Source: an uncultured Thermodesulfobacteriota bacterium (GTDB taxonomy: Bacteria > Desulfobacterota > B13-G15 > RBG-16-54-18). Taken from it: DNA of 64,000 nt. Under the pieces are notes generated by a model. The model saw nothing but the letters and a program-made list of their open reading frames with translations, did no database searches and was not told where the DNA came from. This document shows, piece by piece, positions 19,118-63,127 of the stretch. Location: contig CAYWLI010000001.1 in the NCBI GenBank assembly GCA_964459135.1, positions 2,506 through 66,505 of the forward strand, given 5' to 3'. The translations under genes were made by a program, and so were the position numbers. Within the stretch, counting starts at the first letter, position 1; the number at the start of each line of letters is the position of its first letter.

Positions 19118-19119
19118 CT

Positions 19120-19608
19120 CTATACCTTCCTCTTTTTGAGTGATTTAAGAAATTCCAAGAAAAATACCATACAGACGGGAATACAGCCAAGGGCAATCCC
19201 ATAGGCGAAAGGATAATAGGGTATGTGGATAGTGGCGCTATAGTCCCCTGAGGTTTGCATTAAATAACCAAGCGCAATGAGGCGCCACACAATCACCATG
19301 AAGAGCCCTAAGCCGAGAAGCAGAATAACGCTATTGATAACTGATCCGAGACGCCGTGGCAGCAGCTTGACAAAGAATTCTACTTTGATATGCCGACCTA
19401 GAATCAGCGTCATGCTGCAACCAAAGGCAATTGCCACGGTCTGGGCAAGCATCACGATGTCAAGGGATCCCGGGAGAGGCCACCGAAAGAGCTTAGCCCC
19501 CACAACATCGACGCAGGTCACAACCATCATCACCAGCAACCCAAGAAACGCGAGCCTCTCAAACCAGTCACTTAACCGGCGATTATACCTTTCTAATGTA
19601 TCTAACAC
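19120..19608 (-). CDS. dctQ: TRAP transporter small permease DctQ
   Basis: 162 aa 4-TM protein immediately upstream of dctM. Confidence 0.75.
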   Translation of the reverse strand: MLDTLERYNRRLSDWFERLAFLGLLVMMVVTCVDVVGAKLFRWPLPGSLDIVMLAQTVAIAFGCSMTLILGRHIKVEFFVKLLPRRLGSVINSVILLLGLGLFMVIVWRLIALGYLMQTSGDYSATIHIPYYPFAYGIALGCIPVCMVFFLEFLKSLKKRKV

Positions 19609-19625
19609 TGGGCCTCCCTTACCAT

Positions 19626-19664
19626 CTTCGCTGGGAGCGGGGCAAAGCCCCGCCCCCAGCGAAG
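19626..19664 (-). other. Long GC-rich hairpin between the TRAP SBP and dctQ (intercistronic stem-loop)
   Basis: cttcgctggg-agcggggc-aaa-gccccgc-c-cccagcgaag is a near-perfect ~18-bp stem. No U-run follows. Confidence 0.5.
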
Positions 19665-19765
19665 GTCTGTACTATTGATTGATAAACAATCCGAGGCGAT
19701 CATGCCTACGTCCCCCCACTTATATGCCCAAAGGTAAGGAGACTTTCCTCAGAGGGTCATCCTGT

Positions 19766-20905: not shown

Positions 20906-21131
20906 CGGTAGAACCTCCTTTTGTTTTAATAGAAACATCTGCCTTTTCCTTAAATAACCGTGCAATAACCTTGTTCACTCCTCCTTCACTCCTCACGTAT
21001 ATTTATATCCGTATGCCACCCCCTTTCAAAAAAGTTTTTCCATTCTGTTTCGTGACGAGTACCATGAAACGTCCACTCTGTCACCCTTCACACAAGCAAT
21101 GAATAATTAAACAATGCGTGCCTGTGATCCT

Positions 21132-24576: not shown

Positions 24577-26406
24577 GTGATTATGGGTAAGACACAATCA
24601 TTCCAGATCGAGTTTCAACCCGTGGGCCGGAGAGATCGATTCCCGGCGGAACTGTCCATCCTCGAGTGCGCACGCCGATCAGGCATTGACCTGGTCAGTC
24701 TCTGCGGAGGTGCAGGTACTTGCGGCAAATGCAAGGTACAGATAGTCTCCGGGGAGGTATCCGAACCCTGCCAGAAAGAGAAGGAAGCACTTTCAGCTGA
24801 GGAGATCTCGCAAGGATACCGTCTCGCCTGCCAAACATATGCGCAAACGGATCTCGTGTTAACCGTACCGGCAGAATCTTTGAGCGCCCCGCAACGACTC
24901 CAGGTGGAAGGTCTCGAGACACCTGTCACCCCTGACCCTACCATTCAGACCTATGATGTATCACTGCCGGCCCCTTCCTTGTCCGACCTCAGGGGGGATG
25001 ATGAACGACTTCTTGAGGCGCTGGAGCAGCAACACGGTGCTGTATGTGAAAGCATCGATGAAGAGGTGTTGCGAACCTTTTCGCCCGCGTTGAGATCCCT
25101 CACGTGGGAGGCATCTGTCTCGGTCCGCGACGCTGAGGTAATTGCTGTGGGTCCTGTGGGCGGTCACAGCCTCGGCATGGCCGTTGACCTGGGGACAACC
25201 AAGATCGCCGGTTATCTCGTCGATCTGGAAACCGCTCGTACGCTCTCCGCCAAGGGGATTATGAACCCCCAGATTTCATACGGAGAGGATGTCATCGCGA
25301 GGATGGCCCGCGCCCAGAGGTCTCCTGAAGACGCGGCAACCCTTCAAGAAAAGGTTGTGGAAGCCCTTGCCACGCTTTCCGAGGAACTGTGCCACGAGGC
25401 AACTGATGCCCGACCCGAAGAGATCAAAGAGCTCGTCGTGGTGGGCAACACGGCAATGCACCACCTCCTGCTCAGGCTTCCGGTGGAGCAGTTGGCCAGG
25501 GCGCCGCATGTCCCGGCAATCAGTCGAGCCCTGGATATCAAGGCACGCGATCTGGGTTTTTCAGTCGCCCCAGGTGCCTCTGTACACTTACTGCCCAATA
25601 TTGCCGGTTTTGTTGGGGGCGATCACGTGGCCATGCTATTGGCAGTTAATGCCTGGGAGGCTGAGGGCCCGATGCTCGCTATAGACATCGGGACCAATAC
25701 GGAGATATCCCTGGTGATGCATGGAGAGATCAGCAGCGTGTCGTGCGCGTCAGGACCTGCCTTTGAGGGCGCCCATATCTCCTGTGGCATGCGCGCCGCG
25801 CCGGGTGCTATCGAGCATATGCTGATTACAGGTCAAGAGATTCAATACCATACAATCCATGGCACAGAGCCGGTGGGTATCTGCGGATCAGGCATCTTTG
25901 ACACCCTTGCGCAACTCTTTCTCAATGGCATAATCGACAAAGGCGGGAGGATCAGGGCGGATCATCCTCGCGTTCGGGAAAATCAAAAGGGCAGAGAGTT
26001 TGTGATCGTCAGTGAAGAAGAAAGGAACGGCGGTTCGGCGATCACGATCACGCAAGCGGATGTACGTGAGCTGCAACTGGCACAGGCGGCCATTCGGAGC
26101 GGTATTCAGATACTCTTACGAGACAAGGGGCTTGCGGATGAAGACCTTGACGAGATCATCATCGCGGGAGCCTTTGGAAGCTATCTGAATATTTCAAGCG
26201 CTATCGCCATCGGGATGTTTCCAGCTATTCCCGTAAGTCGCTTTCGCCAGGTTGGAAATGCAGCGGGGATGGGGGCAAAGATCGCCCTCGTCTCCAGAGA
26301 AAAGCGGGAAGCAGTTCAGAAAGGTGTCCGAGCAATTCGCTATATCGAACTTGCGGTGGCCCCCGATTTCAATAAGACCTTTACGCAGGCCCTTTCCCTC
26401 GGATAA
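24577..26406 (+). CDS. RamA-type reductive activase of corrinoid proteins (N-terminal 2Fe-2S ferredoxin + ASKHA ATPase domain)
   Basis: 609 aa with the N-terminal plant-type ferredoxin motif LCGGAGTCGKCKV and a long ASKHA/COG3894-like body. Confidence 0.75.
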   Translation: MIMGKTQSFQIEFQPVGRRDRFPAELSILECARRSGIDLVSLCGGAGTCGKCKVQIVSGEVSEPCQKEKEALSAEEISQGYRLACQTYAQTDLVLTVPAESLSAPQRLQVEGLETPVTPDPTIQTYDVSLPAPSLSDLRGDDERLLEALEQQHGAVCESIDEEVLRTFSPALRSLTWEASVSVRDAEVIAVGPVGGHSLGMAVDLGTTKIAGYLVDLETARTLSAKGIMNPQISYGEDVIARMARAQRSPEDAATLQEKVVEALATLSEELCHEATDARPEEIKELVVVGNTAMHHLLLRLPVEQLARAPHVPAISRALDIKARDLGFSVAPGASVHLLPNIAGFVGGDHVAMLLAVNAWEAEGPMLAIDIGTNTEISLVMHGEISSVSCASGPAFEGAHISCGMRAAPGAIEHMLITGQEIQYHTIHGTEPVGICGSGIFDTLAQLFLNGIIDKGGRIRADHPRVRENQKGREFVIVSEEERNGGSAITITQADVRELQLAQAAIRSGIQILLRDKGLADEDLDEIIIAGAFGSYLNISSAIAIGMFPAIPVSRFRQVGNAAGMGAKIALVSREKREAVQKGVRAIRYIELAVAPDFNKTFTQALSLG

Positions 26407-39966: not shown

Positions 39967-44183
<4,217 letters not shown>

Positions 44184-44316
44184 AATATTGCTCCTTAAAT
44201 AATTAGTAGTAGTAATAAGTCCTGTGAAAAGGTTGATATCTCATATACTATATTGATATTACATAATTAGTTTATGTTTACTGTTTTTGCTTACCTGCGT
44301 TTATTACTGTGCACAA
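44184..44316. other. AT-rich (~70% AT) dnaA-dnaN intergenic region; candidate DNA-unwinding element / oriC segment
   Basis: A sharp AT-rich island in a 58% GC genome. It contains only weak DnaA-box-like 9-mers (ctatccagt, tgtgcacaa). Confidence 0.35.
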
Positions 44317-45651
44317 CTATCCAGTGATTACTTTTATGAGATCGGCTATAACATTTTTTGTATATTGATCATTGTTACATTTTTCTTCTATTTTCTTCAA
44401 GGAGTGGATAACGGTAGAGTGGTCTTTTCCGCCAAACTTTTCACCTATCTCAATAAGGGAGGAGTTGGTGAGTTTTCTGGAAAGGTACATACCTATCTGC
44501 CGAGGTACCACAAATTGTTTGAGACGCCTTTTTGATCTGAGATCTTTCTGTTTCAGGTTGAAATAAGAGGAAACTTTTTTCTGTATACTATCGATCGTGA
44601 TGACCGTTTCCTTGTCTTGAATAAAATTTTTCAAGGCCTCCTTCGCCAAGTCCAAGTTAATCTCTTGTCTGGTGAGGGAAGCAAAGGCCCCGAGTCGAAT
44701 GAGACAGCCTTCTAAGATGCGGACATTCGAGTTGATATGGGAGGCTAAGTAGAAGGCTACTTCATTAGGGATATAGATATTTTCTAGCGCCGCCTTTTTC
44801 TTGAGAATGGCCACCTTAGTTTCTACATCGGGAGGCTGAATATCAGCGATAAGACCCCACTCAAATCTCGATTTCAACCGCTCTTCAAAATCAGGGATCT
44901 CGCGAGGCAGCTTATCACTCGTGATGACAATTTGCATTTTGTTCTCATATAAGGAGTTGAAAGTATGGAAGAATTCTATCTGTGTCCGTTCCTTGCCGGA
45001 TATAAACTGGATGTCATCTATAAGGAGCACCTCTATATGCCTAAATTTCTTTCTAAAGCCATCCATTCGCTCAAATCGAATGGAATTGACCAGTTCATTC
45101 GTGAATTCCTCAGAGGAGATGTAGCATACCTTGGTCGGGTTATTGACCGTCCTGCTCTTTATTATTCTATGTCCGATGGCATTTAACAGATGGGTCTTCC
45201 CCAAACCAACCCCCCCATAGACAAAGAGAGGATTATATCTTCTCCCCGGGGTATCGGCTACCGCTTGGGATGCTGCATGGGCAAATTGGTTTCCCGCGCC
45301 AATTACAAAGTTATCAAACGTATAACGGGGGTTGAACATACGGCTGGCCAAATCCTCATCGCCCCCCCCATCATCTGTCGTAGCTGAAGATTCCGTCACG
45401 TGAGGGGGCTTTACCTTTTTTACCTGAAGAGATACCGAGTAATTCTCCCCCGTAAGTTTATAGAGGGCCCCCTTGATGGTATGTAAATAGTGCTCAGCGA
45501 CCCAGTCACGGAAGAAGTTATTGGGGACCCCAAGAATAAGCTTCTTCTCATCGAGGGACTGAAAGATGATGGGTTTAATCCATGTCTCGAAACTGTTGAC
45601 ATTTATCTGTCCCTTGATGGTCTCTAAGACCTGTTGCCAGAAGTTATCCAT
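44317..45651 (-). CDS. dnaA: Chromosomal replication initiator DnaA
   Basis: 444 aa with AAA+ Walker A GGVGLGKTHL and a C-terminal DNA-binding domain. Confidence 0.96.
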   Translation of the reverse strand: MDNFWQQVLETIKGQINVNSFETWIKPIIFQSLDEKKLILGVPNNFFRDWVAEHYLHTIKGALYKLTGENYSVSLQVKKVKPPHVTESSATTDDGGGDEDLASRMFNPRYTFDNFVIGAGNQFAHAASQAVADTPGRRYNPLFVYGGVGLGKTHLLNAIGHRIIKSRTVNNPTKVCYISSEEFTNELVNSIRFERMDGFRKKFRHIEVLLIDDIQFISGKERTQIEFFHTFNSLYENKMQIVITSDKLPREIPDFEERLKSRFEWGLIADIQPPDVETKVAILKKKAALENIYIPNEVAFYLASHINSNVRILEGCLIRLGAFASLTRQEINLDLAKEALKNFIQDKETVITIDSIQKKVSSYFNLKQKDLRSKRRLKQFVVPRQIGMYLSRKLTNSSLIEIGEKFGGKDHSTVIHSLKKIEEKCNNDQYTKNVIADLIKVITG

Positions 45652-45713
45652 AATGTGTATATACGTGAGTCTTTTAGCAGCCTTGCGTTCTCTTGTTAAA
45701 GGAATTTCAACAT

Positions 45714-45736
45714 TTATTCCACAATTTGTGGATATC
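45714..45736. promoter_or_regulatory. Palindromic pair of DnaA-box-like 9-mers upstream of dnaA (autoregulatory site and/or oriC element)
   Basis: ttatTCCACAAtTTGTGGAtat is a perfect 7-bp inverted repeat. Its right half reads ATATCCACA on the minus strand (8/9 match to TTATCCACA). Confidence 0.5.
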
Positions 45737-45860
45737 TGGTTGTGATAGGATTTGGGAAGAGTTTTGAAAAAGCCTCTTTATATAACCGTTTCTAAATTTT
45801 TCCGCCGAAGACTTGTAGTGCTGTAACAGGGTACACACCATCTGTAGCAAAAAATGAGAT

Positions 45861-48332
45861 TTAGGTCAAGTCCTTTTTCTCCTTTTCCACGAGTCGAGCC
45901 ACGCCCACCACCTTTTCCCCTTCGTCCAAACCGATGAGCCTCACCCCCATGGTATTTCTCCCCCGCAGGGGGATGTCCCCTACTGAGAATCGCAATATCG
46001 TACCCTTGTCCGTGATCAAGATCACTTCATCCTCTTCCACCACCTGGAGAACTCCCACCACCGGCCCATTCTTATCGGAGACGAGGGTGTTAATAACCCC
46101 CTTGCCGCCTCGATTTTGACATCGGTACTCAGACAAAAGGGTCCTCTTGCCGTACCCCTTTTCAGTCACGCTGAACAGCGCGGCCCCTTCCTGGAGTATC
46201 TCCAAATCCACCAGTCGGTCTTGCGGCTCAAGGGTGATCCCCCGCACGCCACTGGCTGCCCTCCCCATCTCCCGAAGTTGCCCCTCTTTGAACCGAGTCG
46301 CCTTCCCCAAGCGCGTCCCCACAAATATCTCTCTTTTTTCTTCTGTAAGCTTGGCATCCACCAGGGCATCCCCCTCCTTCAGGCGCAGCGCGATGATACC
46401 ATCTGCGCGCGGGTTGCTGAAGGCCTGCAGGGCGGTCTTTTTTATCATCCCCTTCTTGGTGGCCATGATGATGAACGTTCCCGGCGCGAACTCCCTGACC
46501 GGGAGGATGGCCGTGATTCGCTCCTGAGAAGAAATGTTGATAAGGTTGACCAAGGCCTTCCCCTTGGCAGAAGGGGCTGCCTGCGGTACCTGGTGCACCT
46601 TGAGCCAATAGATCTTCCCCCCATCGGTAAAGAAGAGGATATAGTGGTGTGTTGAGGCGACGAAGATGAGCTCCACGAAATCCTCGTCTTTGACAGTAAT
46701 TCCGACCCTCCCCTTCCCCCCCCGGCGTTGGCTGCGATACAAACCCGCAGGTGTCCGTTTGGCGTAGCCGGTGTGAGTTATGGTGACCACCATGTCTTCT
46801 TCAAGGATGAGGTCTTCAAGACGCACATCGCCTCCATCCTCGACAATCTGAGTCTGACGGTGGTCACCGAATTCCTCTTGGATATCCCGCAGCTCCTTGA
46901 CGATCACCTCCATCAGAAGCCGCTCATCGCCGAGGATCTGTCTGAGCCGGGCAATCTCCTTGCTCAGCTTTTCAAACTCATCGGAGATCTTTTCCCGCTC
47001 CAAGCCGGTGAGGCGCTGCAGCCGCATCTCCAAGATGGCCTGAGCCTGGGCATCGGTGAAATCGAAATGCTTCACCAATCCTTCCTTGGCATCGGCCGGT
47101 GTCTTTGACTTCTTGATCAATGCAATGATGGCGTCGATGTGCTCTAATGCCTTGAGCAACCCCTGGAGGATGTGGGCGCGGGCCTCGGCCTCGCGCAGTT
47201 CGTGTCGGGAGCGACGGGTAACCACCACCTTGCGATGTTCGATGAAATGTTCAATGAGCGCCTTTATATTCAAGACAATGGGTCTATTCTCCACCAAGGA
47301 CAGAAGGATGATGCCGAAGGATACCTGCATCTGCGTGAGCTTATAGAGTTGGTTGAGGATCACCTCAGCCATCTCGTCTTTTCTGAGCTCCAATACCATC
47401 CGCATCCCCTCGCGGTCGGATTCATCCCGCACCTCTGTGATCCCTTCGAGGCGCTTTTCGTGCATCAACTGGGCGATCTTCTCCACGAGGCGGGCCTTGT
47501 TTACCTGATAGGGGAGTTCCGTGATGATGATGCGATCCCGCCCCCCCTTTTGTTTTTCCACCAGGGCCCGTGCCCGGAGCTGGATGACCCCCCGGCCCGT
47601 CTGATAGGCCGACCTGATCCCCTCCTTCCCACAGATGAGGGCGCCGGTAGGGAAATCAGGACCGGGCACGTATTCCATTAACTCCTCGATGGTTATCGCC
47701 GGATTCTCTATCTGGGCGCAGATGGCGTCCAGCACCTCGGTAAGGTTGTGAGGGGGAATGTTGGTGGCCATTCCCACGGCGATCCCTGCGGAGCCGTTGA
47801 TCAGCAGGTTCGGGACACGAGTTGGGAGCACCGATGGTTCGACAGTAGTTTCATCGAAGTTCGGGACGAAGTCCACGGTGTCCTTATCGATGTCGGCGAG
47901 CAGTGCCTCGGCAAGCTTGGTGAGACGTGCCTCGGTGTATCGGTAGGCGGCTGCGGAATCGCCATCGATGGATCCGAAATTCCCCTGGCCGTCCACAAGC
48001 GGATACCGCATGTTAAAGTCCTGGGCCAGGCGCACCATGGTGTCGTAGACTGCGCTGTCGCCGTGGGGATGATATCTTTTCAGCACCTCGCCGACTACAC
48101 CGGCGCTCTTCGAATACTTCTTGTTGTGAAGGAGGCCTTCCCGGAACATGGCATAGAGGATGCGCCGGTGTACGGGCTTGAGGCCATCCCGAACGTCCGG
48201 GAGTGCCCGCCCGATGATGACGCTCATGGCATAATCCATATAGGATTTGCGCATCTCGTCTTCGATATTTACCGGCACCATTCCGCTTGTGGGAGATGTC
48301 ACGATATCCTCCGGAAACCAAATTGGCTCCAT
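45861..48332 (-). CDS. gyrA: DNA gyrase subunit A (start reassigned to the internal Met; the track ORF starts at 48437)
   Basis: Canonical GyrA (VPVNIEDEM...YAMSVI..., active-site region AAMRYTEARL). The 48437 start would leave only 13 bp to the divergent dgt gene. Confidence 0.93.
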
Positions 48333-48450
48333 TATATCAGAAGGGAGGGGTGTTATCAAGGAAGAGGTTTGCCGTATCGTTTCTCCATCAGCCTGTACTC
48401 CTTGACAAGGGGTAAGGTGAGGCTGTAAGATGCCCACGAGGTGAGGGAGA

Positions 48451-52885: not shown

Positions 52886-53986
52886 TCACGCCGTAAGCTC
52901 AATGACCTTCGCCTTGTTCAGGTCCATGGTTCCCACCCCCAGACGCGCGGCCACGCGCAGGTAGGGGACGATCATGTCGGTGAAGTAGGTCTCGTCGTGT
53001 TCCTCCATGATGTGCGAGCAATAGGTGTCTAAGGCCACCATGTCTCCGCTCAGGATAAATCGGTTGATCCCCTGTTTGACTTCTCCCTTTCCCTTGGTGG
53101 GACCCCCCTTGGTGAGGATGGCCCTGGCATCCACGATGGAGAGCTCAGGGCGCACCGCATCGGCGAACTCGGCCAGAGCGGTCATGAAGTGGGTCTCATC
53201 GCGGAAAGCGGCCTTAGTACGCTCGTCAGCCCCCTTTATCCCCTTTTGTATGCCTTCTCCCCGGATGTGGGAGTCCCAGCGCTGGGCCCCATAGATTGCT
53301 CCAAACTGGTTTTTCAGGGCACAGGTGAGAAAGGAGGTATGATGCCTCTTCAAACAGGGCATGTTGATGATGATTGGGGCTTGATGGATCTTCTTATGCA
53401 CGATGATCTCAGGGTAGGCTCGCCAGCCATCTTTCCTGGTCTTGACGTATTCCCGCCGCCGACCCGCGTCACCGATGGTGACAGCGATCCCCTGCTCCTT
53501 CCCCCTGCGGGTGATGTCATTGAAGTTGAAAGTCTCCCGCTCAGTACCCAAGAGATAGGTCCCCGGGGCGTCGAAGACCTCCACCCCTGAAGCCCCTTCC
53601 TCCCGCAGGAGGCGGGCCATCAGAAATATCATCTCCGGATCGGTGGTGATGGGGTAGGGTTGGCGGAAGATAAAATTGGGTTTGATGAGGGCCTCTGCCC
53701 CACCCCCCACCAGGGGGTTGAGGCCACCCAGGGCCTCCAGGGCGGCTCGGAGCATGCGCTCCGGGTCCTTCCCCTGGACAGAGACTACCAAGGGTTTGCC
53801 CTCCACTACATAGGGGTTGGGGATACCTGATCGAGCCCCTTGCGCCCCCCTGAAACACCCCGTGCCCCAGGTCGACAGGATTGCTGCGCCACCGACGGCA
53901 TATTTGATAAAATCACGGCGGGATATCTCCCCGTTATCTCTTTTTTTCACGAGCATTGACTCCTTTTTCGCGCATTTTTCCCTCAT
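52886..53986 (-). CDS. Tat-signal exported protein, DUF362-like
   Basis: Twin-arginine motif SRRDFIKYAVGGAAIL. The body shares an ALKNxxG-type motif with the DUF362-ferredoxin protein at 60369. Confidence 0.5.
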   Translation of the reverse strand: MREKCAKKESMLVKKRDNGEISRRDFIKYAVGGAAILSTWGTGCFRGAQGARSGIPNPYVVEGKPLVVSVQGKDPERMLRAALEALGGLNPLVGGGAEALIKPNFIFRQPYPITTDPEMIFLMARLLREEGASGVEVFDAPGTYLLGTERETFNFNDITRRGKEQGIAVTIGDAGRRREYVKTRKDGWRAYPEIIVHKKIHQAPIIINMPCLKRHHTSFLTCALKNQFGAIYGAQRWDSHIRGEGIQKGIKGADERTKAAFRDETHFMTALAEFADAVRPELSIVDARAILTKGGPTKGKGEVKQGINRFILSGDMVALDTYCSHIMEEHDETYFTDMIVPYLRVAARLGVGTMDLNKAKVIELTA

Positions 53987-57196: not shown

Positions 57197-58546
57197 TTAT
57201 TGAAACCTCCTACGCTTCCATGGAAGCTTGGTCCACCCAAGCTTTTCACCCCCGAGGATCTTTTTATGGACGAAGCGGCGTTGAAAGAAATTGAAGGGAA
57301 AGTAGATGGCCTTATTGACGAGGGTGGGGCGAAACTCCCACTGAAATCTCTGGAGTATGGAGGTGTAGGAGTAAAACTCCCGCCAGGTCCATTCCCATCC
57401 CTCCCTGAGCTCCTCACGGGTCATCCCGCGAGGGTGGAAGTGAGGGGCGCGGTCCCCCTGATTCTCTAAGAGCCACCATCGCTCCTCGGTCAACCTCCCC
57501 TCCTCCTTGAGTCGTTCGTAGAGGGCGGTGCCGGGGTAGGGGGTGAGGATGGGAAAGTTCACCGAGAAGAACTTGGCCTCGATAGCGAAACGCACCGTCT
57601 GTTCAAAGATCCCCTTGTCATCGTGGTCAAAACCAAACATAAAGGAGGCCCAGATCGCGATCCCGTGACGATGCAGGTTGCGGATTATCGACAAGTAATC
57701 AGCTGGCCGATTCTGATGCTTCCGCGACGCTCGGATATTGTCCTCGGACATAGATTCGAAGCCGATGAGCACCCCCTTGCAGCCGCTTTTCGCCAAGAGC
57801 TTGATCTGCGCCTCATCCTCCAGGCCGGCCAGGGAGGCCTGCCCGATCCACCACTTGCGCAGAGGGATGAGGGCCTCGAGTAGCTGCTGAGAGTAGCGGG
57901 GGTGACCAACGATATTGTCATCGGCGAACATAATCACTTTATGTCGCAGGGAGCGGGCCTCGACTATGACGTTCTCGATGGGACGGTAGCGATAGGTCCC
58001 GCCGAAGAATCTCCTCACCGAGCAGAAGTCGCATAAATAGGGGCAACCCCTGGTGGCCTGCAAGGAATCTATGGGGAAATAGTCTTTGGCACGGTAGATC
58101 TCGCGACGGGCCAAAGGAATTTCTTCTGGGGGGGTAAAATCCCTCTGCTGATATATTCTCTCTAGGTTTCCTCTGCGGAAGTCACCGATCAGGCGGGGCC
58201 AGCTTTCCTCTGCCTCCCCTACCACCACGGCATCGCAGTGTTCCAGGGCCTCATCTGGGAGGGCTGTGGGGTGGATACCACCCATGACTACAGGGATCCC
58301 TCGCTCACGATAGGCTTGGGCGATCTGGTAGGATCGAAGGGCGGTTTTGGTGGAACAGGAAATCCCTACCAGATCCACTTCCTTCAGGTCGCCATTCAGG
58401 TCTATGGGGTTGATGAGGTCGTCGCTGAAGGAGACCTCCACCTCGGGCGGGGTGAGGGCGGCCACCGTCGCGAGGGAGAGATTGGGGATGGGGGCGTTAT
58501 CCTCTGCCGCCGGGGTGATGAGCTCTAATCGTATTCGTGTCGTCAT
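57197..58546 (-). CDS. B12-binding-domain radical SAM enzyme (HpnJ-like class B rSAM)
   Basis: 449 aa with an N-terminal cobalamin-binding Rossmann region and a CxxxCxxC cluster (RGCPYLCDFCS). Confidence 0.75.
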   Translation of the reverse strand: MTTRIRLELITPAAEDNAPIPNLSLATVAALTPPEVEVSFSDDLINPIDLNGDLKEVDLVGISCSTKTALRSYQIAQAYRERGIPVVMGGIHPTALPDEALEHCDAVVVGEAEESWPRLIGDFRRGNLERIYQQRDFTPPEEIPLARREIYRAKDYFPIDSLQATRGCPYLCDFCSVRRFFGGTYRYRPIENVIVEARSLRHKVIMFADDNIVGHPRYSQQLLEALIPLRKWWIGQASLAGLEDEAQIKLLAKSGCKGVLIGFESMSEDNIRASRKHQNRPADYLSIIRNLHRHGIAIWASFMFGFDHDDKGIFEQTVRFAIEAKFFSVNFPILTPYPGTALYERLKEEGRLTEERWWLLENQGDRAPHFHPRGMTREELREGWEWTWREFYSYTSILQRFQWEFRPTLVNKAIYFPFNFFQRRFVHKKILGGEKLGWTKLPWKRRRFQ

Positions 58547-58652: not shown

Positions 58653-59282
58653 ATGATGAGAGGCCTCTATGTATCTATGAGGAGTGGAGGTGTGTCGGGA
58701 ATGAAATGTTCTCATGAACTACCGGACACAAAGGGTGAAATTACCCCAGAGCAGACTGCGGAACTTCTACAGGAATTCCGTGTCCCCCACCATATAATCG
58801 CTCACAGCAAGAAGGTTGCTGAGGTGGCCTGCTTTCTTGCCAGTGAACTCAATAAGGTCGGTTACGCCCTGGAGCTTTCCTTGGTCGAGGTCGGGGCCCT
58901 CCTGCACGATATTGCGAGGATCCACAGCATCGAGACGGGTGACGATCACACCAGCGTGGGGGGAACGTGGCTCAAAGAGAAGGGGTTTGATAGGGTGGCT
59001 GATATCGTTCGCCATCACGTCCATTTTCCCGATGAGGAGATGAGGATTTCCGAGGTAGCGGTGGTCAATTATGCGGATAAACGGGTGATGGAGACAACGA
59101 TCGTGGACCTCAATGAGCGGTTTGAAGATTTTATTCAGAGACACGGGGTGACAGGAAAGGAATTGGAGCGCTTAGATGAATTTAGAGAAAGGATTAAAAA
59201 ACTAGAACACATCCTCTTTTTTCCTCTCCCCTTTGGTCCTGAAGAATTGGTGAGGAGGATCGAAGGTGAGCGGCCAGTATAG
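58653..59282 (+). CDS. HD-domain phosphohydrolase
   Basis: 209 aa with H...HD...D motifs (HSKKVAEVA, LLHDIARI). Confidence 0.65.
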   Translation: MMRGLYVSMRSGGVSGMKCSHELPDTKGEITPEQTAELLQEFRVPHHIIAHSKKVAEVACFLASELNKVGYALELSLVEVGALLHDIARIHSIETGDDHTSVGGTWLKEKGFDRVADIVRHHVHFPDEEMRISEVAVVNYADKRVMETTIVDLNERFEDFIQRHGVTGKELERLDEFRERIKKLEHILFFPLPFGPEELVRRIEGERPV

Positions 59283-59415: not shown

Positions 59416-60366
59416 ATGACAGTTCTTTTCGCCAATTCTGTGAAACGGATCAGAATCGGCACGAGAGGGAGCAAGCTCGCCCTTCGGCAAACCGTATGGG
59501 TGCGGGAGCGGATCGCCGAGCACCATCCGGGCATCCAGATAGAGGTGGTCAGGATCAAGACTAACGGTGACAAGATTACCGATGTCCCCCTGGCCACGGT
59601 GGGGGGGAAGGGGCTTTTTGTCAAGGAGATCGAGGAGGCCCTCCTGCGCAAGGAGATAGACCTGGCGGTGCACAGCATGAAGGATGTGCCCACCGAGCTT
59701 CCAGCAGGCCTGCACCTGGGGGCCATTACTGAGCGGGAGGACCCCCGTGATGTCCTGGTCTCAAGGGATGGACTGAGGCTGCAGGCATTTCCCCCCGGGG
59801 CCCGGATGGGGACCTCTTCACTCAGGAGGGGGGCCCAGCTTCTGGGGGTCAACCCGCAGTGGAAGATTATCCCTCTGCGGGGCAACTTGGATACCAGGAT
59901 TAGGAAGTTGAAGACCGGGGACCTCGACGCAGTAATACTGGCTGCTGCGGGGGTTCGCAGGATGGGGTTGGAGGATCGGGTCACTGAATACCTCCCTCCC
60001 GATGTGATGCTTCCGGCTGTCGGCCAAGGTGCCCTGGGGATTGAGTGTCTTCAAGAGGGGGCGGTCAACGAGTTGATCGCCTTTCTGAACCACCCCGACA
60101 GCGCCATGGCAGTGGAAGGGGAGCGGGCCTTTTTGCGCCGGCTGGAGGGTGGGTGCCAGGTTCCCATTGCTGCCTATGGTGAAATACGCGCAGGGGAGCT
60201 TCTCTTACGCGGGATGGTGGCTCATCTTGACGGATCGCGCTTCTTCCGCGCCGAGGCCCAGGGGGATGACCCCGAGACAGTGGGGGAGCGCTTGGCCGAA
60301 GACCTACTGGCCCAGGGGGCTGATAAGGTCCTGCAGGAGATTTATTCACATTTGAGCGAGGCATAA
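59416..60366 (+). CDS. hemC: Hydroxymethylbilane synthase (porphobilinogen deaminase)
   Basis: 316 aa: RIGTRGSKLALRQT...KTNGDKI..., canonical HemC. Confidence 0.92.
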   Translation: MTVLFANSVKRIRIGTRGSKLALRQTVWVRERIAEHHPGIQIEVVRIKTNGDKITDVPLATVGGKGLFVKEIEEALLRKEIDLAVHSMKDVPTELPAGLHLGAITEREDPRDVLVSRDGLRLQAFPPGARMGTSSLRRGAQLLGVNPQWKIIPLRGNLDTRIRKLKTGDLDAVILAAAGVRRMGLEDRVTEYLPPDVMLPAVGQGALGIECLQEGAVNELIAFLNHPDSAMAVEGERAFLRRLEGGCQVPIAAYGEIRAGELLLRGMVAHLDGSRFFRAEAQGDDPETVGERLAEDLLAQGADKVLQEIYSHLSEA

Positions 60367-60368
60367 AC

Positions 60369-61475
60369 ATGGTAAGTAAGGTCTATTTCGCTGACCTGCG
60401 GACCACGCACACCAGAAACCTGTTGGACAAAGTAGGGGAGTTATTGGACAAGGTGGAGCTCTCCAAGCGGATTAAGGCGAAGGGGACTGTGGCCATCAAA
60501 CTCCATTTCGGCGAGCGCGGGAACACCGCCTATGTCAGGCCCGTCTTCCTGCGCAGCATCGTCGACCGGGTGAAAGAGCTGGGGGGCAGGCCCTTCCTCA
60601 CCGATACCTGCACCCTCTACGGTGGTACCAGGTCCAATGCCGTGTCGCACCTCACCACGGCGGAAGAGCACGGTTTTGCCTTCTCCGTAGTCGGTGCCCC
60701 CATTATTATCGCCGATGGCCTTTTGGGGAACGCCTTTGTGCGGGTGCCGATCGAGGGGAAGGCCTTTCAGGAGGTAAGCATTGCCCATGCGATCTATTAT
60801 GCTGATTCATTCATCGGGGTGACACACTTTAAGGGGCACGAACTTACTGGCTTCGGCGGGGCCCTAAAGAACGTCGGGATGGGGTGCGCGAGCCGGGAGG
60901 GGAAGCTGAATCAGCACTCCACACTCGGTCCTAAGGTGAAGAGAAAAGCGTGCGTGGGGTGTGGGGCCTGTATCGAATGGTGCACCTATGGGGCCCCCGA
61001 GATGCGGGATGGAAAGGCCTTTATCAACCCCGACAAGTGCGTGGAATGCGGGGAGTGCATTGCGATCTGCCCGGAGGGGGCAATCCAGATTCGCTGGAAT
61101 GAAGCCTCCCCGGCGTTCCAGCGAAAGATGGTGGAGTACGCAGTAGGGGCGTTGAAAAACAAGGGGGAACGGGTCGCCTTTGTGAGCTTCATCACCCAGG
61201 TGAGCCCCTATTGCGATTGCTACGGGTACAGCGATGCCCCTATCGTAGGGGATGTGGGTATCCTCTCATCGGATGATCCGGTGGCTATTGATCAGGCATC
61301 CGTCGATCTGGTGAATGCCCAGCCCGGCAGCGTGATTTCTCCCTATACACAGGATCTGCCCCCGGGGGCGGACAAATTCCGGGCCGTGCACCGGGAGGTG
61401 GACTGGGAGGTCCAGTTGGCACATGCTGAGGAGATGGGTTTAGGAAGAAGGGAGTATGAGCTTGTGAGCATATGA
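60369..61475 (+). CDS. DUF362-domain protein fused to a 2x[4Fe-4S] ferredoxin domain
   Basis: 368 aa with two CxxCxxCxxxCP motifs (CVGCGACIEWCTYGAP, CVECGECIAICPEGA). Its start lies 2 nt after the hemC stop. Confidence 0.65.
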   Translation: MVSKVYFADLRTTHTRNLLDKVGELLDKVELSKRIKAKGTVAIKLHFGERGNTAYVRPVFLRSIVDRVKELGGRPFLTDTCTLYGGTRSNAVSHLTTAEEHGFAFSVVGAPIIIADGLLGNAFVRVPIEGKAFQEVSIAHAIYYADSFIGVTHFKGHELTGFGGALKNVGMGCASREGKLNQHSTLGPKVKRKACVGCGACIEWCTYGAPEMRDGKAFINPDKCVECGECIAICPEGAIQIRWNEASPAFQRKMVEYAVGALKNKGERVAFVSFITQVSPYCDCYGYSDAPIVGDVGILSSDDPVAIDQASVDLVNAQPGSVISPYTQDLPPGADKFRAVHREVDWEVQLAHAEEMGLGRREYELVSI

Positions 61476-61669
61476 CGAGGTCGCTTTGCTCATTTCTTTC
61501 TTGTTGTATACGATGAGTTTATATACTTATGTTTTAGAGAAACGGGTGCTCATCGAATTATGCAATTCTATTTTAAGAACGTCAGCATTCCCGATATGAA
61601 TAGTGTGGTCGATGCCCTCTCAGGGTGTTGACCCTCACATATTCTCTCATCAGTAAGGGAGGAGATCCC

Positions 61670-63127
61670 ATGATTGTTACTATCTTGATTGTATTGGCAG
61701 CCCTCGTTTTGGTAGTGCAGGCATGTATTGGGTTGGGTTTCTTTATTTCGTGTATGTGGGAAAAAGAAAAACGGGCCACCCTTTTCGCTGGATTGCAATG
61801 CTTCGGCATGCTGTGTGTGCTGATCGCCTTTCTGTATCTCGTGCGTATCGATTTTTTTGAGACAGACACGGGCCTTGCGATTCTTATCATAGGATTTTTT
61901 CTTGGTGCTGTTGTTGCTTTTCTTTTCTTGAGGCGTACTGCGCCGAACAAAAAGGCACTTGAAGGGACGAAGGGATTGATTGTCGGAGACGTAAGGCGAT
62001 TCGATGAAAGAGACCAGGTCTTTGCGAGGAATCGAACCCTGCGACCCGGTTCAGAACAGTATAGGGCGTATTACCAGGAACATCCCGAACACGAGGCATT
62101 CGATGCAAAGAGAAGGAAAAAGGGAGGGCCCATTGGGGACCTCGGCATCATCGATAGGCCCCATAGCGCGGCAAATGCTTCCGCTACCCTGGCATCCCTC
62201 TCCATGTCCTTGTATCTTTCAACTCCTGAGAAGGTGAGCCCTCAGGCCCATGTTCAATTGCAGGGCACACAGGTCAACCTCAGCCCGGAGGAGGCGACAG
62301 AGAGAGTGAAGGGTTATGCTCGATACCTGGGGGCCGATCTGGTGGGGATAACAGAGATCAACCCTCTCTGGCTCTATTCTCACCGGGGAGAGATATTCCA
62401 CGAGAATTGGGAGGACTGGGGGAAGGAGATTAGGCTCAGTCATACCTATGCGGTTGTCTGTGCCGAGGAGATGTCCTTTGAAATGGTCGGCTCTGCACCC
62501 CACACCCCTACCACTATTGAAAGTATGAAGAACTATGCAAAGGGGGCCGTTATCGCAGATCAGCTCGCGGCCTTCATCGCCAACCTCGGGTATTCAGCTA
62601 CAGCAAATTTCCTCCGTCATTATGATGCCATGCTTGTGCCATTGGCAGTGGATGCGGGTTTAGGGGAATGCGGTCGACTTGGATATGTGATGACAAAAGA
62701 ATTTGGCCCACGGGGAAGGCTCAGCGCGGTGACCACGGACTTGCCCCTCGTAGTTGATAAGCCGATAGATATTGGCGTTGAGGATTTCTGCACGATCTGT
62801 AAGAAGTGCGCTGTCTGCTGCCCCTCCAGATCTATTCCGTTGGATGATCAGCAAGAGATCAATGGAACACTACGCTGGAAGTTGCATGATGAGACATGCT
62901 TTGATTATTGGGGGAATATTGGGACAGATTGCAACATTTGTATGCGGGTGTGCCCATGGAGTCATGCGAGGGCATTACCCCACAAGCTTATCATGGAGAT
63001 TATTACGAGAAATAAACTCGCGCGACGTCTCTTTAATGTGATGGATGATATATTTTATGGAAAGAAGCCACAACCGAAACCAACAGCTCCCCTCTGGGCT
63101 TCTTTTCATTCCTGGGAGAAAAGATAG
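61670..63127 (+). CDS. Reductive-dehalogenase-family (RdhA/QueG-like) Fe-S protein with an N-terminal 3-TM membrane anchor
   Basis: Start placed at the ATG preceded by AAGGGAGGAG. It has three N-terminal TM helices, then FCTICKKCAVCCP (CxxCxxCxxxCP) and CFDYWGNIGTDCNICMRVCP (Cx10CxxCxxxCP). No Tat motif is present. Confidence 0.6.
   Translation: MIVTILIVLAALVLVVQACIGLGFFISCMWEKEKRATLFAGLQCFGMLCVLIAFLYLVRIDFFETDTGLAILIIGFFLGAVVAFLFLRRTAPNKKALEGTKGLIVGDVRRFDERDQVFARNRTLRPGSEQYRAYYQEHPEHEAFDAKRRKKGGPIGDLGIIDRPHSAANASATLASLSMSLYLSTPEKVSPQAHVQLQGTQVNLSPEEATERVKGYARYLGADLVGITEINPLWLYSHRGEIFHENWEDWGKEIRLSHTYAVVCAEEMSFEMVGSAPHTPTTIESMKNYAKGAVIADQLAAFIANLGYSATANFLRHYDAMLVPLAVDAGLGECGRLGYVMTKEFGPRGRLSAVTTDLPLVVDKPIDIGVEDFCTICKKCAVCCPSRSIPLDDQQEINGTLRWKLHDETCFDYWGNIGTDCNICMRVCPWSHARALPHKLIMEIITRNKLARRLFNVMDDIFYGKKPQPKPTAPLWASFHSWEKR

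What the first reader, a model, noticed from the sequence alone, without database searches (positions are those of the whole stretch)
61670..63127. Membrane-anchored reductive-dehalogenase-family protein lacking a Tat signal
Seen in sequence: a strong SD plus ATG at 61670, three N-terminal TM helices, then a ~380-aa soluble domain ending with the two Fe-S motifs diagnostic of the RdhA/QueG superfamily (CxxCxxCxxxCP and Cx10CxxCxxxCP). Established knowledge: respiratory RdhA proteins are Tat-exported and partnered with an RdhB anchor, while QueG is soluble and ~370 aa. A self-anchored, Tat-less 485-aa form belongs to a poorly characterised clade seen in sediment anaerobes. There is no rdhB-like or queuosine-pathway neighbour here (hemC/DUF362 upstream, KAS downstream). 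Inference: a cytoplasm-facing, membrane-tethered corrinoid/Fe-S reductase of unknown substrate.
Basis: partly seen in the sequence, partly recalled or inferred. Interest (0 to 1): 0.55.

Follow-up and report, generated by a model that had tools for sequence, protein, structure and literature searches.

The report
Self-anchored, cytoplasm-facing reductive dehalogenase homologue
The gene is a real, intact member of an already published but never biochemically tested class of vitamin-B12/iron-sulfur "reductive dehalogenases" that carry their own three-helix membrane anchor instead of an export signal, so it is an ordinary example of a known puzzle, not a new kind of gene.

Summary
Window 61670-63127 (+) encodes a 485-aa protein with a strong ribosome-binding site. 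It has three N-terminal membrane helices, no Tat motif and both RdhA Fe-S motifs.

It passes the curated RDH model (TIGR02486, 178.9 bits against a cut-off of 160.35) and fails QueG (38.9 against 200). A confident AlphaFold model (pLDDT 95) matches PceA and NpRdhA structures. The catalytic Tyr and Arg are present and near-invariant in the family.

The class was described in 2018-2019 as "hybrid" RdhA with N-terminal transmembrane helices (PMC6797604). About 2000 cold-seep sequences were later catalogued as "transmembrane respiratory RdhA" (PMC12219181). I found no biochemical study.

What I add:
- Charge bias in 70 of 70 relatives puts the catalytic domain in the cytoplasm.
- The first helix hairpin with its ExE loop is homologous to the menaquinone-site hairpin of the anchor protein PceB, but sits on the opposite face of the membrane.
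- The His/Asp/Tyr residues of the PceA quinone pocket are retained.

Best reading: a cytoplasm-facing, probably menaquinol-fed, cobamide dehalogenase. Its substrate is unknown. The hemC, DUF362 and KAS neighbours are not conserved partners. Verdict: a new member of a known kind, of moderate interest.

The parts
61657..61662 (+). Shine-Dalgarno GGGAGG, 7 nt before the ATG at 61670
   Evidence: Read directly from the sequence. Homologues begin at this ATG, not at the upstream GTG 61625.
61670..63127 (+). Gene for the 485-aa TMH-type RdhA (stop codon 63125-63127)
   Evidence: ORF list. TIGR02486 scores 178.9 bits against cut-off 160.35. JGI metagenome contigs encode exactly this protein sequence. 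dN/dS is 0.16.
61673..61759 (+). TM helix 1 (residues 2-30). No charged N-terminal region, so it is not a Sec or Tat signal.
   Evidence: Kyte-Doolittle peak 3.05. AlphaFold helix with pLDDT about 97. The N-terminus has a mean of 0.03 K+R across the family.
61760..61777 (+). Loop 1, E31-K-E33-K-R35-A36 (the ExE motif), predicted cytoplasmic
   Evidence: E31 is conserved in 67/70, E33 in 58/70, R35 in 53/70 and A36 in 64/70. Mean K+R is 2.41. It aligns with PceB S-E61-R-E63-Y-Q-A.
61778..61846 (+). TM helix 2 (residues 37-59). With TM1 it forms the hairpin homologous to PceB TMH2-TMH3.
   Evidence: hhalign matches hybrid residues 20-52 to PceB residues 50-82 (probability 81.8%, score 31.6), against a maximum of 15.2 in 200 column shuffles.
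61865..61930 (+). TM helix 3 (residues 66-87). It returns the chain to the side of loop 1.
   Evidence: Loop 2 is only 2-10 residues long and has a mean of 0.29 K+R.
61991..62035 (+). Conserved juxtamembrane motif R-R-F-D112-E113-R114-x3-F118-x-R120 (residues 108-122)
   Evidence: D112 is conserved in 69/70, E113 in 68/70, R114 in 67/70, F118 in 67/70 and R120 in 70/70. The motif is also kept in TM-less relatives. Its role is unknown.
62267..62965 (+). Cobamide-binding and Fe-S catalytic core (residues about 200-432)
   Evidence: phmmer alignments to NpRdhA, DhPceA and SmPceA. Foldseek TMq is 0.57-0.59 to 8q4h_A and 4ras.
62534..62536 (+). Tyr289, the equivalent of the catalytic Tyr (NpRdhA Y426, DhPceA Y337, SmPceA Y246)
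   Evidence: Pairwise alignments. It is conserved in 70/70 of the family alignment, and in 72/72 TMH-type and 30/31 TM-less relatives.
62717..62719 (+). Arg350, the equivalent of NpRdhA K488, DhPceA R396 and SmPceA R305
   Evidence: Conserved in 69/70.
62789..62824 (+). FeS1 motif CTICKKCAVCCP (C374, C377, C380, C384, P385)
62897..62956 (+). FeS2 motif C410-x10-C421-x2-C424-x3-C428-P429
62975..63058 (+). C-terminal helices 436-447 and 449-463, carrying H438, D459 and Y463. These align with the DhPceA menaquinone-pocket residues H495, D515 and Y520.
   Evidence: Alignment to 8q4h_A and pocket residues from PMC10624902. Conservation is 63/72, 63/72 and 68/72 in TMH-type relatives and 18/31, 18/31 and 17/31 in TM-less ones.

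Best explanation
The gene encodes a functional member of the published N-terminal-TMH ('hybrid' or 'transmembrane') class of reductive dehalogenase homologues.

Shown here:
- An RdhA catalytic domain with eight Fe-S cysteines and the catalytic Tyr289 and Arg350.
- A three-helix membrane domain fused in front of it.
- No Tat signal and no separate rdhB gene.

Inferred with good support (about 0.85): the topology is N-terminus out and C-terminus in, so the cofactor-bearing domain faces the cytoplasm.

Inferred with moderate support (about 0.45): the enzyme works as an 'inside-out' single-chain version of the PceA-PceB menaquinol:organohalide oxidoreductase. Menaquinol would bind at the cytoplasmic membrane face, between the TM1-ExE-TM2 hairpin (homologous to PceB TMH2-ExE-TMH3) and the C-terminal helices carrying H438, D459 and Y463. 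Electrons would pass through the two [4Fe-4S] clusters to a cobamide, which reductively removes a halogen from a substrate that has entered the cell. Tyr289 would donate the proton.

If so, the quinol protons are released on the cytoplasmic side. The step itself then adds nothing to the proton-motive force. The enzyme would be an electron sink or a catabolic or detoxifying dehalogenase, not the proton-releasing terminal reductase that PceAB is proposed to be.

The substrate is unknown. Gene contexts of relatives hint at imported halogenated aromatic or organic acids. Those contexts include a TRAP transporter, a GntR regulator, a PaaK-type CoA ligase and a TM-less RdhA paralogue.
For: Family membership:
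- TIGR02486 is above its cut-off.
- PDB phmmer finds NpRdhA at 3e-46 and PceA at 1e-38 and 1e-35.
- The AlphaFold model has pLDDT 95.2 and pTM 0.93. Foldseek finds 8q4h_A at 1e-21 and 4ras at 4e-20.
- Y289 and R350 align with the catalytic Tyr and Arg/Lys of all three solved RdhAs. They are conserved in 70/70 and 69/70.

Class:
- The protein has three TMH, no TAT, no rdhB, an ExE motif and two Fe-S motifs, exactly as in PMC6797604.
- Relatives L026 and L046 come from MAGs listed in that paper's Table 1.

Topology:
- Mean K+R is 0.03 at the N-terminus, 2.41 in loop 1, 0.29 in loop 2 and 4.09 after TM3. The bias points the same way in 70/70 sequences.
- Fe-S and cobamide insertion happen in the cytoplasm, and export of such folded proteins needs Tat (established knowledge).

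Fixed, functional membrane domain:
- pTM 0.93 for the whole chain, with linker pLDDT 90-98.
- dN/dS in the TM region is 0.115.

RdhB homology:
- The best of 177,635 PDB sequences for the TM profile is PceB 8q4h_C (E = 0.028).
- Profile-profile comparison gives probability 81.8% and score 31.6. The null from 200 column shuffles has mean 8.7 (sd 1.6, maximum 15.2), and the reversed profile scores 13.0.
- In PceAB that hairpin and the PceA C-terminal helices enclose menaquinone, and E61/E63, H495, D515 and Y520 are the proposed proton path.
- H438, D459 and Y463 align with them. They are 88-94% conserved in TMH-type relatives, whereas soluble NpRdhA has G, D and Q at those positions.

Context hints:
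- GntR > RDH > TRAP appears in about 10 loci. MoOx > Fer4_11 > lipoprotein > RDH > PaaK appears in at least 12 loci. TM-less RdhA paralogues sit in tandem.
Against: - No member of the class has been assayed. Dehalogenation, cobamide content, quinol dependence and topology are therefore all unproven.
- The RdhB match covers only 33 columns. It is seen only with profiles: a narrow PceB HMM does not hit this protein, and Pfam scans of the TM region return nothing relevant.
- H, D and Y are also present in about 55% of TM-less relatives. According to PMC10624902 they also occur in quinone-independent RdhAs, so they are not diagnostic of quinone use.
- Menaquinol is a thermodynamically poor donor for Co(II)/Co(I). 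This problem is shared with PceAB (my own knowledge).
- I could not inspect model coordinates, so the proposed pocket geometry is untested.
- In this window none of the TRAP, PaaK or GntR partners is adjacent. The neighbours (hemC, DUF362, KAS) are conserved only among relatives of at least 84-91% identity.
- NpRdhA R552 is replaced here by Trp414, which is invariant in the family. Substrate binding therefore differs from that of the closest solved enzyme.
Confidence: 0.6

Rival explanations
1. The helices are only a tether. The cytoplasm-facing enzyme takes electrons from a soluble donor, such as a ferredoxin or flavodoxin, possibly the DUF362/2x[4Fe-4S] protein encoded immediately upstream. 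It acts as a catabolic dehalogenase, like the cytosolic RdhAs.
For: - The closest solved relative by sequence is the cytoplasmic catabolic NpRdhA (3e-46).
- TM-less paralogues about 35% identical sit beside TMH-type genes in several MAGs.
- Relatives lie in TRAP/CoA-ligase/GntR contexts.
- A DUF362 Fe-S protein lies 194 bp upstream on the same strand here.
- The His/Asp/Tyr 'pocket' residues also occur in about 55% of TM-less relatives.
Against: - The TM domain is under purifying selection at least as strong as the catalytic domain (dN/dS 0.115 against 0.162).
- It carries near-invariant polar residues (E31, E33, R35, A36).
- It is homologous to the quinone-site hairpin of PceB.
- It is modelled as rigidly packed on the catalytic domain (pTM 0.93). 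None of this is expected of a passive tether.
- DUF362 adjacency is lost in every relative below about 84% identity.
Confidence: 0.22
2. It is not a dehalogenase. The RdhA fold is used for another cobamide-dependent reduction of a common, non-xenobiotic substrate, as QueG does with epoxyqueuosine. The gene would then have a housekeeping-type role.
For: - Conservation is unusually high for an RdhA: 65-71% identity across Desulfobacterales and Desulfatiglandales, and 73% mean column identity.
- The gene sits in a core, origin-proximal neighbourhood, with dnaA 16 kb away and thyX, mnmE, yidC and rnpA downstream in the 91% relative.
- There is no regulator or rdh accessory gene nearby.
- The class occurs in fermenters not known to dehalogenate.
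- NpRdhA's substrate-contacting R552 is replaced by an invariant Trp.
Against: - The catalytic Tyr/Arg pair of the dehalogenases is invariant.
- The protein scores above the curated RDH cut-off and far below that of QueG.
- Several paralogues per genome, and tandem arrangements with regulators, transporters and CoA ligases, look like substrate-diversified catabolic genes.
Confidence: 0.12
3. It is a classical outward-facing respiratory RdhA that reaches the periplasmic side without Tat, as TMHMM predicted for about half of the class in the 2019 survey.
For: In PMC6797604 Table 1, many members are listed with an 'exoplasmic' C-terminus. The class is labelled 'transmembrane respiratory' in PMC12219181.
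Against: - Charge bias points the same way (C-terminus in) in 70/70 homologues, so the split TMHMM calls are best read as prediction noise.
- There is no Tat motif.
- A 390-residue domain holding two [4Fe-4S] clusters and a cobamide cannot be threaded unfolded through Sec or YidC and then loaded outside the cell (established knowledge).
Confidence: 0.04
4. It is a membrane-bound epoxyqueuosine reductase (QueG orthologue).
For: It belongs to the same superfamily and shares Fe-S motifs with QueG. There are weak hits: TIGR00276 at 5e-10 and PDB 5d6s at 3.5e-6.
Against: - The score of 38.9 bits is far below the QueG cut-off of 200.
- Foldseek TM-score to QueG is only 0.31-0.33, against 0.57-0.59 to RdhAs.
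- There are no queuosine genes nearby.
Confidence: 0.01

Closest known systems
'Hybrid' putative RdhA with N-terminal transmembrane helices (Desulfatiglans SAG2, strain NaphS2, Dethiosulfatarculus, Marinilabiliales and others; Jochum 2018, Atashgahi 2019 PMC6797604), also called 'transmembrane respiratory RdhA' (PMC12219181)
   Same: It has about 450-500 aa, three N-terminal TMH, an ExE motif in loop 1, no TAT, no rdhB and two Fe-S motifs. It comes from sediment Desulfobacterota. Relatives 63-66% identical come from MAGs listed in that paper.
   Different: Nothing essential differs: this is a member. Its local context (hemC, DUF362, KAS, origin-proximal) differs from the TRAP/PaaK/GntR or Mo-oxidoreductase contexts of many relatives. 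The literature leaves the orientation open and calls the class respiratory. My analysis favours a uniformly cytoplasmic catalytic domain.
PceA2B2 menaquinol:organohalide oxidoreductase of Desulfitobacterium hafniense TCE1 (PDB 8Q4H, PMC10624902)
   Same: It is the best structural match (Foldseek 1e-21). The catalytic Y337 and R396 correspond to Y289 and R350, and the pocket residues H495, D515 and Y520 correspond to H438, D459 and Y463. The PceB TMH2-E61xE63-TMH3 hairpin is homologous to TM1-E31xE33-TM2. In both, the ExE loop lies on the same side of the membrane as the catalytic domain.
   Different: PceA is Tat-exported and sits on the outer (P) face, with PceB as a separate 105-aa subunit. 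Here the module is one chain, lacks Tat and is predicted to sit on the inner (N) face. The ExE loop is between helices 1 and 2, not 2 and 3. PceB's TMH1 has no counterpart, and an extra third helix leads into the enzyme. The C-terminal extension is shorter: the protein ends about 25 residues after the aligned D459, whereas PceA continues to Q551. Sequence identity is only 22%.
NpRdhA / BhbA catabolic, self-sufficient reductive dehalogenases (PDB 4RAS, 6ZY1)
   Same: It is the closest solved relative by sequence (3e-46). Both are cytoplasmic and lack Tat. The Tyr426 and Lys488 equivalents are conserved, and Foldseek rmsd is 4.4-4.9 A.
   Different: NpRdhA is soluble and about 700 aa long. It has an N-terminal vestigial duplicate domain and a C-terminal NAD(P)H-dependent reductase module. 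Neither is present here. R552 is Trp here, and the His and Tyr of the quinone pocket are Gly and Gln in NpRdhA.
QueG epoxyqueuosine reductase
   Same: It shares the superfamily fold, a cobalamin cofactor plus two [4Fe-4S] clusters, and a cytoplasmic location.
   Different: The protein fails the QueG model (38.9 against 200 bits). TM-score is 0.33. QueG has no membrane domain.

Membership tests
RdhA catalytic subunit (NCBIfam TIGR02486 'reductive dehalogenase') | Whole-protein score above the curated cut-off | tested here: met
   178.9 bits against a cut-off of 160.35, E = 2.1e-52.
RdhA catalytic subunit | Two [4Fe-4S] motifs: CxxCxxCxxxCP and Cx(n)CxxCxxxCP | tested here: met
   C374/377/380/384-P and C410/421/424/428-P. 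All are invariant in 70 sequences.
RdhA catalytic subunit | Active-site Tyr and Arg/Lys (SmPceA Y246/R305, DhPceA Y337/R396, NpRdhA Y426/K488) | tested here: met
   Y289 and R350 align with them. They are conserved in 70/70 and 69/70.
RdhA catalytic subunit | RdhA three-dimensional fold | tested here: met
   AlphaFold pLDDT 95.2. Foldseek gives 8q4h_A at 1.1e-21 and 4ras at 3.7e-20, with TMq 0.57-0.59 although 90 residues are membrane helices.
RdhA catalytic subunit | Bound cobamide and reductive dehalogenase activity | not testable with these tools
   This needs expression, cofactor analysis and an assay. No sequence motif defines base-off cobamide binding in RdhAs.
Prototypical respiratory RdhAB | N-terminal twin-arginine (RRxFxK) signal peptide | tested here: not met
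   No motif occurs in the first 120 residues. The N-terminus is Met followed directly by a 29-residue helix. 'RRFDER' at 108-113 lies after TM3 and is not followed by a hydrophobic region.
Prototypical respiratory RdhAB | Adjacent rdhB gene and rdh accessory genes (rdhC/K/T and others) | tested here: not met
   Gene calls with Pfam for +/-10 kb show none. A PceB HMM finds nothing in the six-frame translation of the window.
N-terminal-TMH ('hybrid' / 'transmembrane') RdhA class (PMC6797604, PMC12219181) | One to three (typically three) N-terminal TM helices fused to RdhA | tested here: met
   Helices at 2-30, 34-59 and 66-87.
N-terminal-TMH RdhA class | [quoted passage not shown] | tested here: met
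   E31-K-E33. E31 is conserved in 67/70 and E33 in 58/70.
N-terminal-TMH RdhA class | Absence of both TAT and rdhB | tested here: met
N-terminal-TMH RdhA class | Sequence relationship to described members | tested here: met
   It is 66% identical to the RdhA in L026 (MAG HGW-Deltaproteobacteria-15) and 63% to that in L046 (Desulfobacterales S5133MH16). Both MAGs are listed in Table 1 of PMC6797604. I did not build a formal tree.
Menaquinol:organohalide oxidoreductase (works like PceAB) | RdhB-type helix hairpin with ExE loop next to the RdhA C-terminal helices | tested here: inconclusive
   Hairpin homology is supported: PDB top hit PceB at E = 0.028, and hhalign score 31.6 against a shuffle maximum of 15.2. 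H438, D459 and Y463 align with H495, D515 and Y520. The 3D pocket could not be inspected, and these residues are not specific to quinone users.
Menaquinol:organohalide oxidoreductase (works like PceAB) | Quinone binding and quinol-driven activity | not testable with these tools
   Needs biochemistry or a structure.
Self-sufficient catabolic RdhA (NpRdhA/BhbA type) | Fused C-terminal NAD(P)H:flavin/[2Fe-2S] reductase module | tested here: not met
   The protein ends at residue 485. Pfam finds only 4Fe-4S dicluster domains. The alignment to 4RAS stops at chain residue 604 of 704.
QueG epoxyqueuosine reductase (TIGR00276) | Score above the equivalog cut-off | tested here: not met
   38.9 bits against a cut-off of 200. 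Foldseek TMq is 0.31-0.33.

The most novel reading that the evidence does not exclude
The whole TMH-RdhA class, this gene included, may not be an organohalide-respiratory enzyme at all. It would be a cytoplasm-facing, quinol-fed cobamide reductase built from an RdhA-RdhB module turned over to the inner face of the membrane. It would act on a widespread natural or endogenous substrate. That would explain its 65-70% conservation across orders, its place in a core origin-proximal neighbourhood without regulators, and its presence in fermenters. It would make the 'transmembrane respiratory' label in the literature wrong.
Probability: 0.15. Interest if true: 0.75.

Novelty: new member of a known kind. 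Interest (0 to 1): 0.38.

Why it matters
TMH-type rdhA genes are among the most abundant rdhA-like genes in marine sediments: 1963 of 3993 in the cold-seep catalogue, with the highest transcript level reported for an rdhA-like subgroup there (19.13 TPM). Yet no member has a known substrate, electron donor or orientation.

If the catalytic domain is cytoplasmic and fed by menaquinol released on the inner face, these genes should not be counted as energy-conserving organohalide respiration in halogen-cycle budgets. The RdhA-RdhB module would also be an example of a redox module that has changed membrane face.

The present gene adds no new category. It is a clean, full-length, well-modelled representative (pLDDT 95) that could serve for expression and topology tests.

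Tried and rejected
- A first AlphaFold run on 28 close homologues gave pLDDT 51.7 and was discarded. A 70-sequence alignment of 27-91% identity fixed it.
- hemC, DUF362-Fe-S, KAS, the B12-radical-SAM gene and the HD gene were considered as functional partners and rejected. The arrangement is kept only in relatives of at least 84-91% identity. It is absent from all 80 species-level relatives.
- Cobalamin riboswitch or other RNA element upstream: none found.
- Sigma-70 promoter or terminator consensus around the gene: nothing above the shuffle expectation and nothing in the 194-bp upstream gap on the + strand.
- A Pfam scan of the TM region of 30 family members gave only weak, scattered membrane-family hits. 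The RdhB family PF27193, which the big database attaches to PceB, did not appear. I do not know whether the local Pfam copy holds it.
- A narrow PceB HMM against all 837 stop-to-stop segments of the window found no rdhB. It did not hit the RdhA N-terminus either, so the hairpin homology is visible only with family profiles.
- QueG orthology is rejected on scores.
- The upstream GTG start (61625) is rejected by homologue alignment and by the position of the ribosome-binding site.
- No formal phylogeny was built. I relied on HMM cut-offs, PDB E-values and the published trees.
Full report
**1. The observation**

Window 61670-63127 (+) is an intact ORF of 485 codons, preceded by GGGAGG 7 nt upstream. 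A longer reading from GTG 61625 is possible, but all aligned homologues begin at the ATG.

Hydropathy finds three segments above 1.6 on a 19-residue window, with peaks of 3.05, 2.23 and 2.98. AlphaFold models them as helices 2-30, 34-59 and 66-87. No twin-arginine motif is present.

They are C374xxC377xxC380xxxC384P and C410x10C421xxC424xxxC428P. All eight cysteines are invariant across 70 relatives of 27-91% identity.

The gene is under purifying selection. dN/dS is 0.16 against a 91% orthologue, and 0.115 in the membrane part.

**2. What family it is**

The protein exceeds the curated cut-off of NCBIfam TIGR02486 'reductive dehalogenase' (178.9 against 160.35 bits). It is far below the QueG equivalog (38.9 against 200). 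Pfam sees only the ferredoxin-type dicluster domain.

Against solved structures, the best sequence matches are:
- the catabolic NpRdhA (4RAS, 3e-46);
- Desulfitobacterium PceA (8Q4H, 2e-38);
- Sulfurospirillum PceA (4UQU, 1e-35);
- QueG, only at 3.5e-6.

A model from a shallow alignment was poor (pLDDT 51.7). A 70-sequence alignment gave pLDDT 95.2 and pTM 0.93. Foldseek returns RdhA structures at 1e-21 to 6e-19 with TMq 0.52-0.59, and QueG at 1e-6 with TMq 0.33.

Tyr289 aligns with NpRdhA Y426, DhPceA Y337 and SmPceA Y246. Arg350 aligns with K488, R396 and R305. In the family they are conserved in 70/70 and 69/70. NpRdhA R552 corresponds to Trp414, invariant in the family, so substrate contacts differ from NpRdhA.

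**3. It is a known class**

Atashgahi 2019 (PMC6797604), following Jochum 2018, described 'hybrid' putative RdhAs. They have three N-terminal TMH, an ExE motif between helices 1 and 2, no TAT and no rdhB. They occur in Desulfatiglans-related cells, strain NaphS2, Marinilabiliales and many sediment MAGs. Function, orientation and substrate were listed as open questions.

The 2025 cold-seep survey (PMC12219181) calls the class 'transmembrane respiratory RdhA' and counts 1963 sequences. Searches of the paper library found no biochemical characterisation.

The big protein database holds more than 2000 homologues. Those shown are 65-99% identical and 472-513 aa long. The closest are JGI sequences already named 'reductive dehalogenase'. 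The exact protein occurs on 15 metagenome contigs.

Species-level genomes give 80 loci, nearly all Desulfobacterota, at 55-71% identity. They include MAGs listed in the 2019 table: HGW-Deltaproteobacteria-15 (L026) and S5133MH16 (L046).

**4. Orientation**

With three helices, loop 1 and the catalytic domain are necessarily on the same side of the membrane. Which side that is follows from the positive-inside rule. Mean K+R counts across 70 relatives are:
- N-terminus: 0.03
- loop 1: 2.41
- loop 2: 0.29
- the 25 residues after TM3: 4.09

The direction is the same in 70/70 sequences. That gives N-out and C-in for the whole family. The roughly 50:50 'cytoplasmic/exoplasmic' TMHMM calls in the 2019 table are best read as predictor noise. 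This agrees with the lack of a Tat signal. Fe-S and cobamide enzymes are loaded in the cytoplasm and need Tat to leave it (established knowledge).

**5. The membrane domain is more than a tether**

It is strongly constrained. It has near-invariant E31, E33, R35 and A36. The model places it rigidly on the enzyme, with whole-chain pTM 0.93 and linker pLDDT 90-98.

A profile of the first 100 residues of 30 relatives, searched against all 177,635 distinct PDB sequences, returns as its single best hit the membrane anchor PceB of the PceA2B2 complex (8q4h_C, E = 0.028). TM1-loop-TM2 aligns to PceB TMH2-S-E61-R-E63-Y-Q-A-TMH3.

I collected 13 PceB homologues and aligned them. Profile-profile comparison gives probability 81.8%, E = 1.1e-5 and score 31.6 over hybrid residues 20-52 and PceB residues 50-82. 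Two hundred column-shuffled controls gave mean 8.7, sd 1.6 and maximum 15.2. The reversed profile scored 13.0.

In the cryo-EM structure, that PceB hairpin and two C-terminal helices of PceA enclose menaquinone at the outer (P) face. E61/E63 together with PceA H495, D515 and Y520 are proposed to conduct the quinol protons outward. In the pairwise alignment, H495, D515 and Y520 correspond to H438, D459 and Y463 of the window protein.

These three residues are kept in 63/72, 63/72 and 68/72 TMH-type relatives. They are kept in 18/31, 18/31 and 17/31 TM-less relatives. NpRdhA has Gly, Asp and Gln there.

A plain PceB-PceA end-to-end fusion would put the enzyme on the opposite face from the ExE loop. 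Here, instead, the homologous hairpin comes first and a third helix brings the chain back. The ExE loop and the enzyme therefore stay together, now on the cytoplasmic face. PceB's own charge pattern is K/R-rich in the TMH1-2 loop and the C-terminus. The hybrid shows the opposite pattern for the shared hairpin.

**6. Mechanism proposed**

- Shown: the RdhA fold, the Fe-S ligands, the catalytic Tyr/Arg, the fused three-helix domain, and the absence of Tat and rdhB.
- Inferred with good support: a cytoplasmic catalytic domain.
- Inferred with moderate support: menaquinol binds at the inner membrane face, between the RdhB-like hairpin and helices 436-463. Electrons then flow through two [4Fe-4S] clusters to a cobamide, which removes a halogen, with Tyr289 as proton donor.

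A consequence follows. Quinol protons would be released inside the cell, so this step would not itself build proton-motive force. The 'respiratory' label is therefore doubtful. An electron-sink, detoxifying or catabolic role is at least as likely.

The main caveats are:
- No member has been assayed.
- The hairpin match covers 33 columns and is visible only with profiles.
- The His/Asp/Tyr residues are not specific to quinone users.
- I could not inspect model coordinates.

**7. Surroundings**

In the window, the order of genes is as follows:
- B12-binding radical SAM (minus strand), 57197-58546
- HD-domain protein, 58653-59282
- HemC, 59416-60366
- DUF362 with a 2x[4Fe-4S] insert, 60369-61475
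- the RdhA gene
- beta-ketoacyl synthase (minus strand), from 63182

Relatives of 91% identity keep HemC-DUF362-RdhA-KAS-ThyX. Relatives at 55-71% identity do not. These genes are therefore neighbours, not partners.

Among the 80 species-level loci, two co-directional arrangements recur. One is GntR > RdhA > TRAP DctPQM, in about 10 loci. The other is Mo-oxidoreductase > Fer4_11 subunit > small lipoprotein > RdhA > PaaK-type CoA ligase, in at least 12 loci. A TM-less RdhA paralogue of about 395 aa often lies upstream.

This hints at imported halogenated organic or aromatic acids as substrates. However, these loci are phylogenetically related, no background control was run, and none of these genes is adjacent in the window.

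The gene lies about 16 kb from dnaA in a core region. No RNA family, riboswitch or convincing promoter or terminator was found.

**8. Verdict**

The feature is a typical new member of a known, widely catalogued, but biochemically untested class.

My additions are hypotheses to test, not discoveries of a new system. They are the uniform cytoplasmic orientation, the homology and flipped placement of the RdhB quinone-site hairpin, and the retained pocket residues. Interest is moderate (0.38).

Noticed in passing
window 40568-48437 (minus strand): Replication-origin gene set: gyrB (40568-42985), an unchecked ORF in the dnaN position (43071-44183), dnaA (44320-45651) and gyrA (45864-48437). The TMH-rdhA therefore sits about 16 kb from dnaA in a core region. 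In the 91% relative L010, thyX, FTHFS, mnmE, jag, yidC and rnpA follow downstream.
   Followed up: partly
window 24577-26403 (+) and 13779-15119 (-): A RACo-type reductive activator of corrinoid proteins (Fer2 plus RACo linker, middle and C-terminal domains) and a URO-D/MtaA-like methyltransferase. The organism evidently runs other cobamide-dependent systems. The ORFs between them were not annotated.
   Followed up: no
window 17816-20965 (-), 2442-3941, 8226-10274, 16069-17724, 22902-24098: A TRAP transporter (DctM, a DctQ-sized ORF, DctP), three AMP-binding CoA ligases and a thiolase. This is an organic-acid uptake and activation repertoire, similar to the genes that flank TMH-rdhA in other Desulfobacterota, but about 40 kb away here.
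   Followed up: no
window 60369-61475 (+) and 52886-53986 (-): Two DUF362 genes lie within 9 kb. The one just upstream of the rdhA carries an inserted 2x[4Fe-4S] ferredoxin domain. The other lies beside DUF6599 and a glycosyltransferase. The function of DUF362 is unknown, and its adjacency to rdhA is lost in relatives below about 84% identity.
   Followed up: partly
L032, L044, L050, L051, L058, L060, L065, L069, L076, L077, L079 and others (genes upstream of and at about 8001-9450 in full-flank loci): A conserved co-directional cluster in Desulfobacterales MAGs. It runs: 719-aa molybdopterin oxidoreductase without a twin-arginine N-terminus, Fer4_11 Fe-S subunit, a lipoprotein of about 135-150 aa with no Pfam match, TMH-RdhA, PaaK-type CoA ligase. 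An Asp/Glu racemase gene often lies upstream and a DUF1508 gene downstream. What this cluster degrades is unknown.
   Followed up: partly
L005/L026 4537-5730, L029 4170-5354, L032 5699-6889, L036 5814-7001, L039 98-1285, L051 5617-6804, L015 6459-7667: TM-less RdhA paralogues of about 395 aa (33-38% identical to the window protein) lie just upstream of GntR and the TMH-type gene. Cytosolic and membrane-anchored forms are therefore paired in one locus.
   Followed up: partly
window 61991-62008 (residues 108-113, RRFDER): A twin-arginine-like 'RRFDER' lies after the third helix, not at the N-terminus. D112, E113, R114, F118 and R120 are almost invariant in both TMH-type and TM-less relatives. 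It may be a structural motif of the domain N-terminus or a relic. Its role is unexplained.
   Followed up: partly
L016, L020, L028 (MAG Meg19_1012_Bin_230): One MAG carries at least three TMH-type rdhA loci at 66-67% identity to the window protein. The class therefore forms paralogue families within genomes, despite its high conservation.
   Followed up: no
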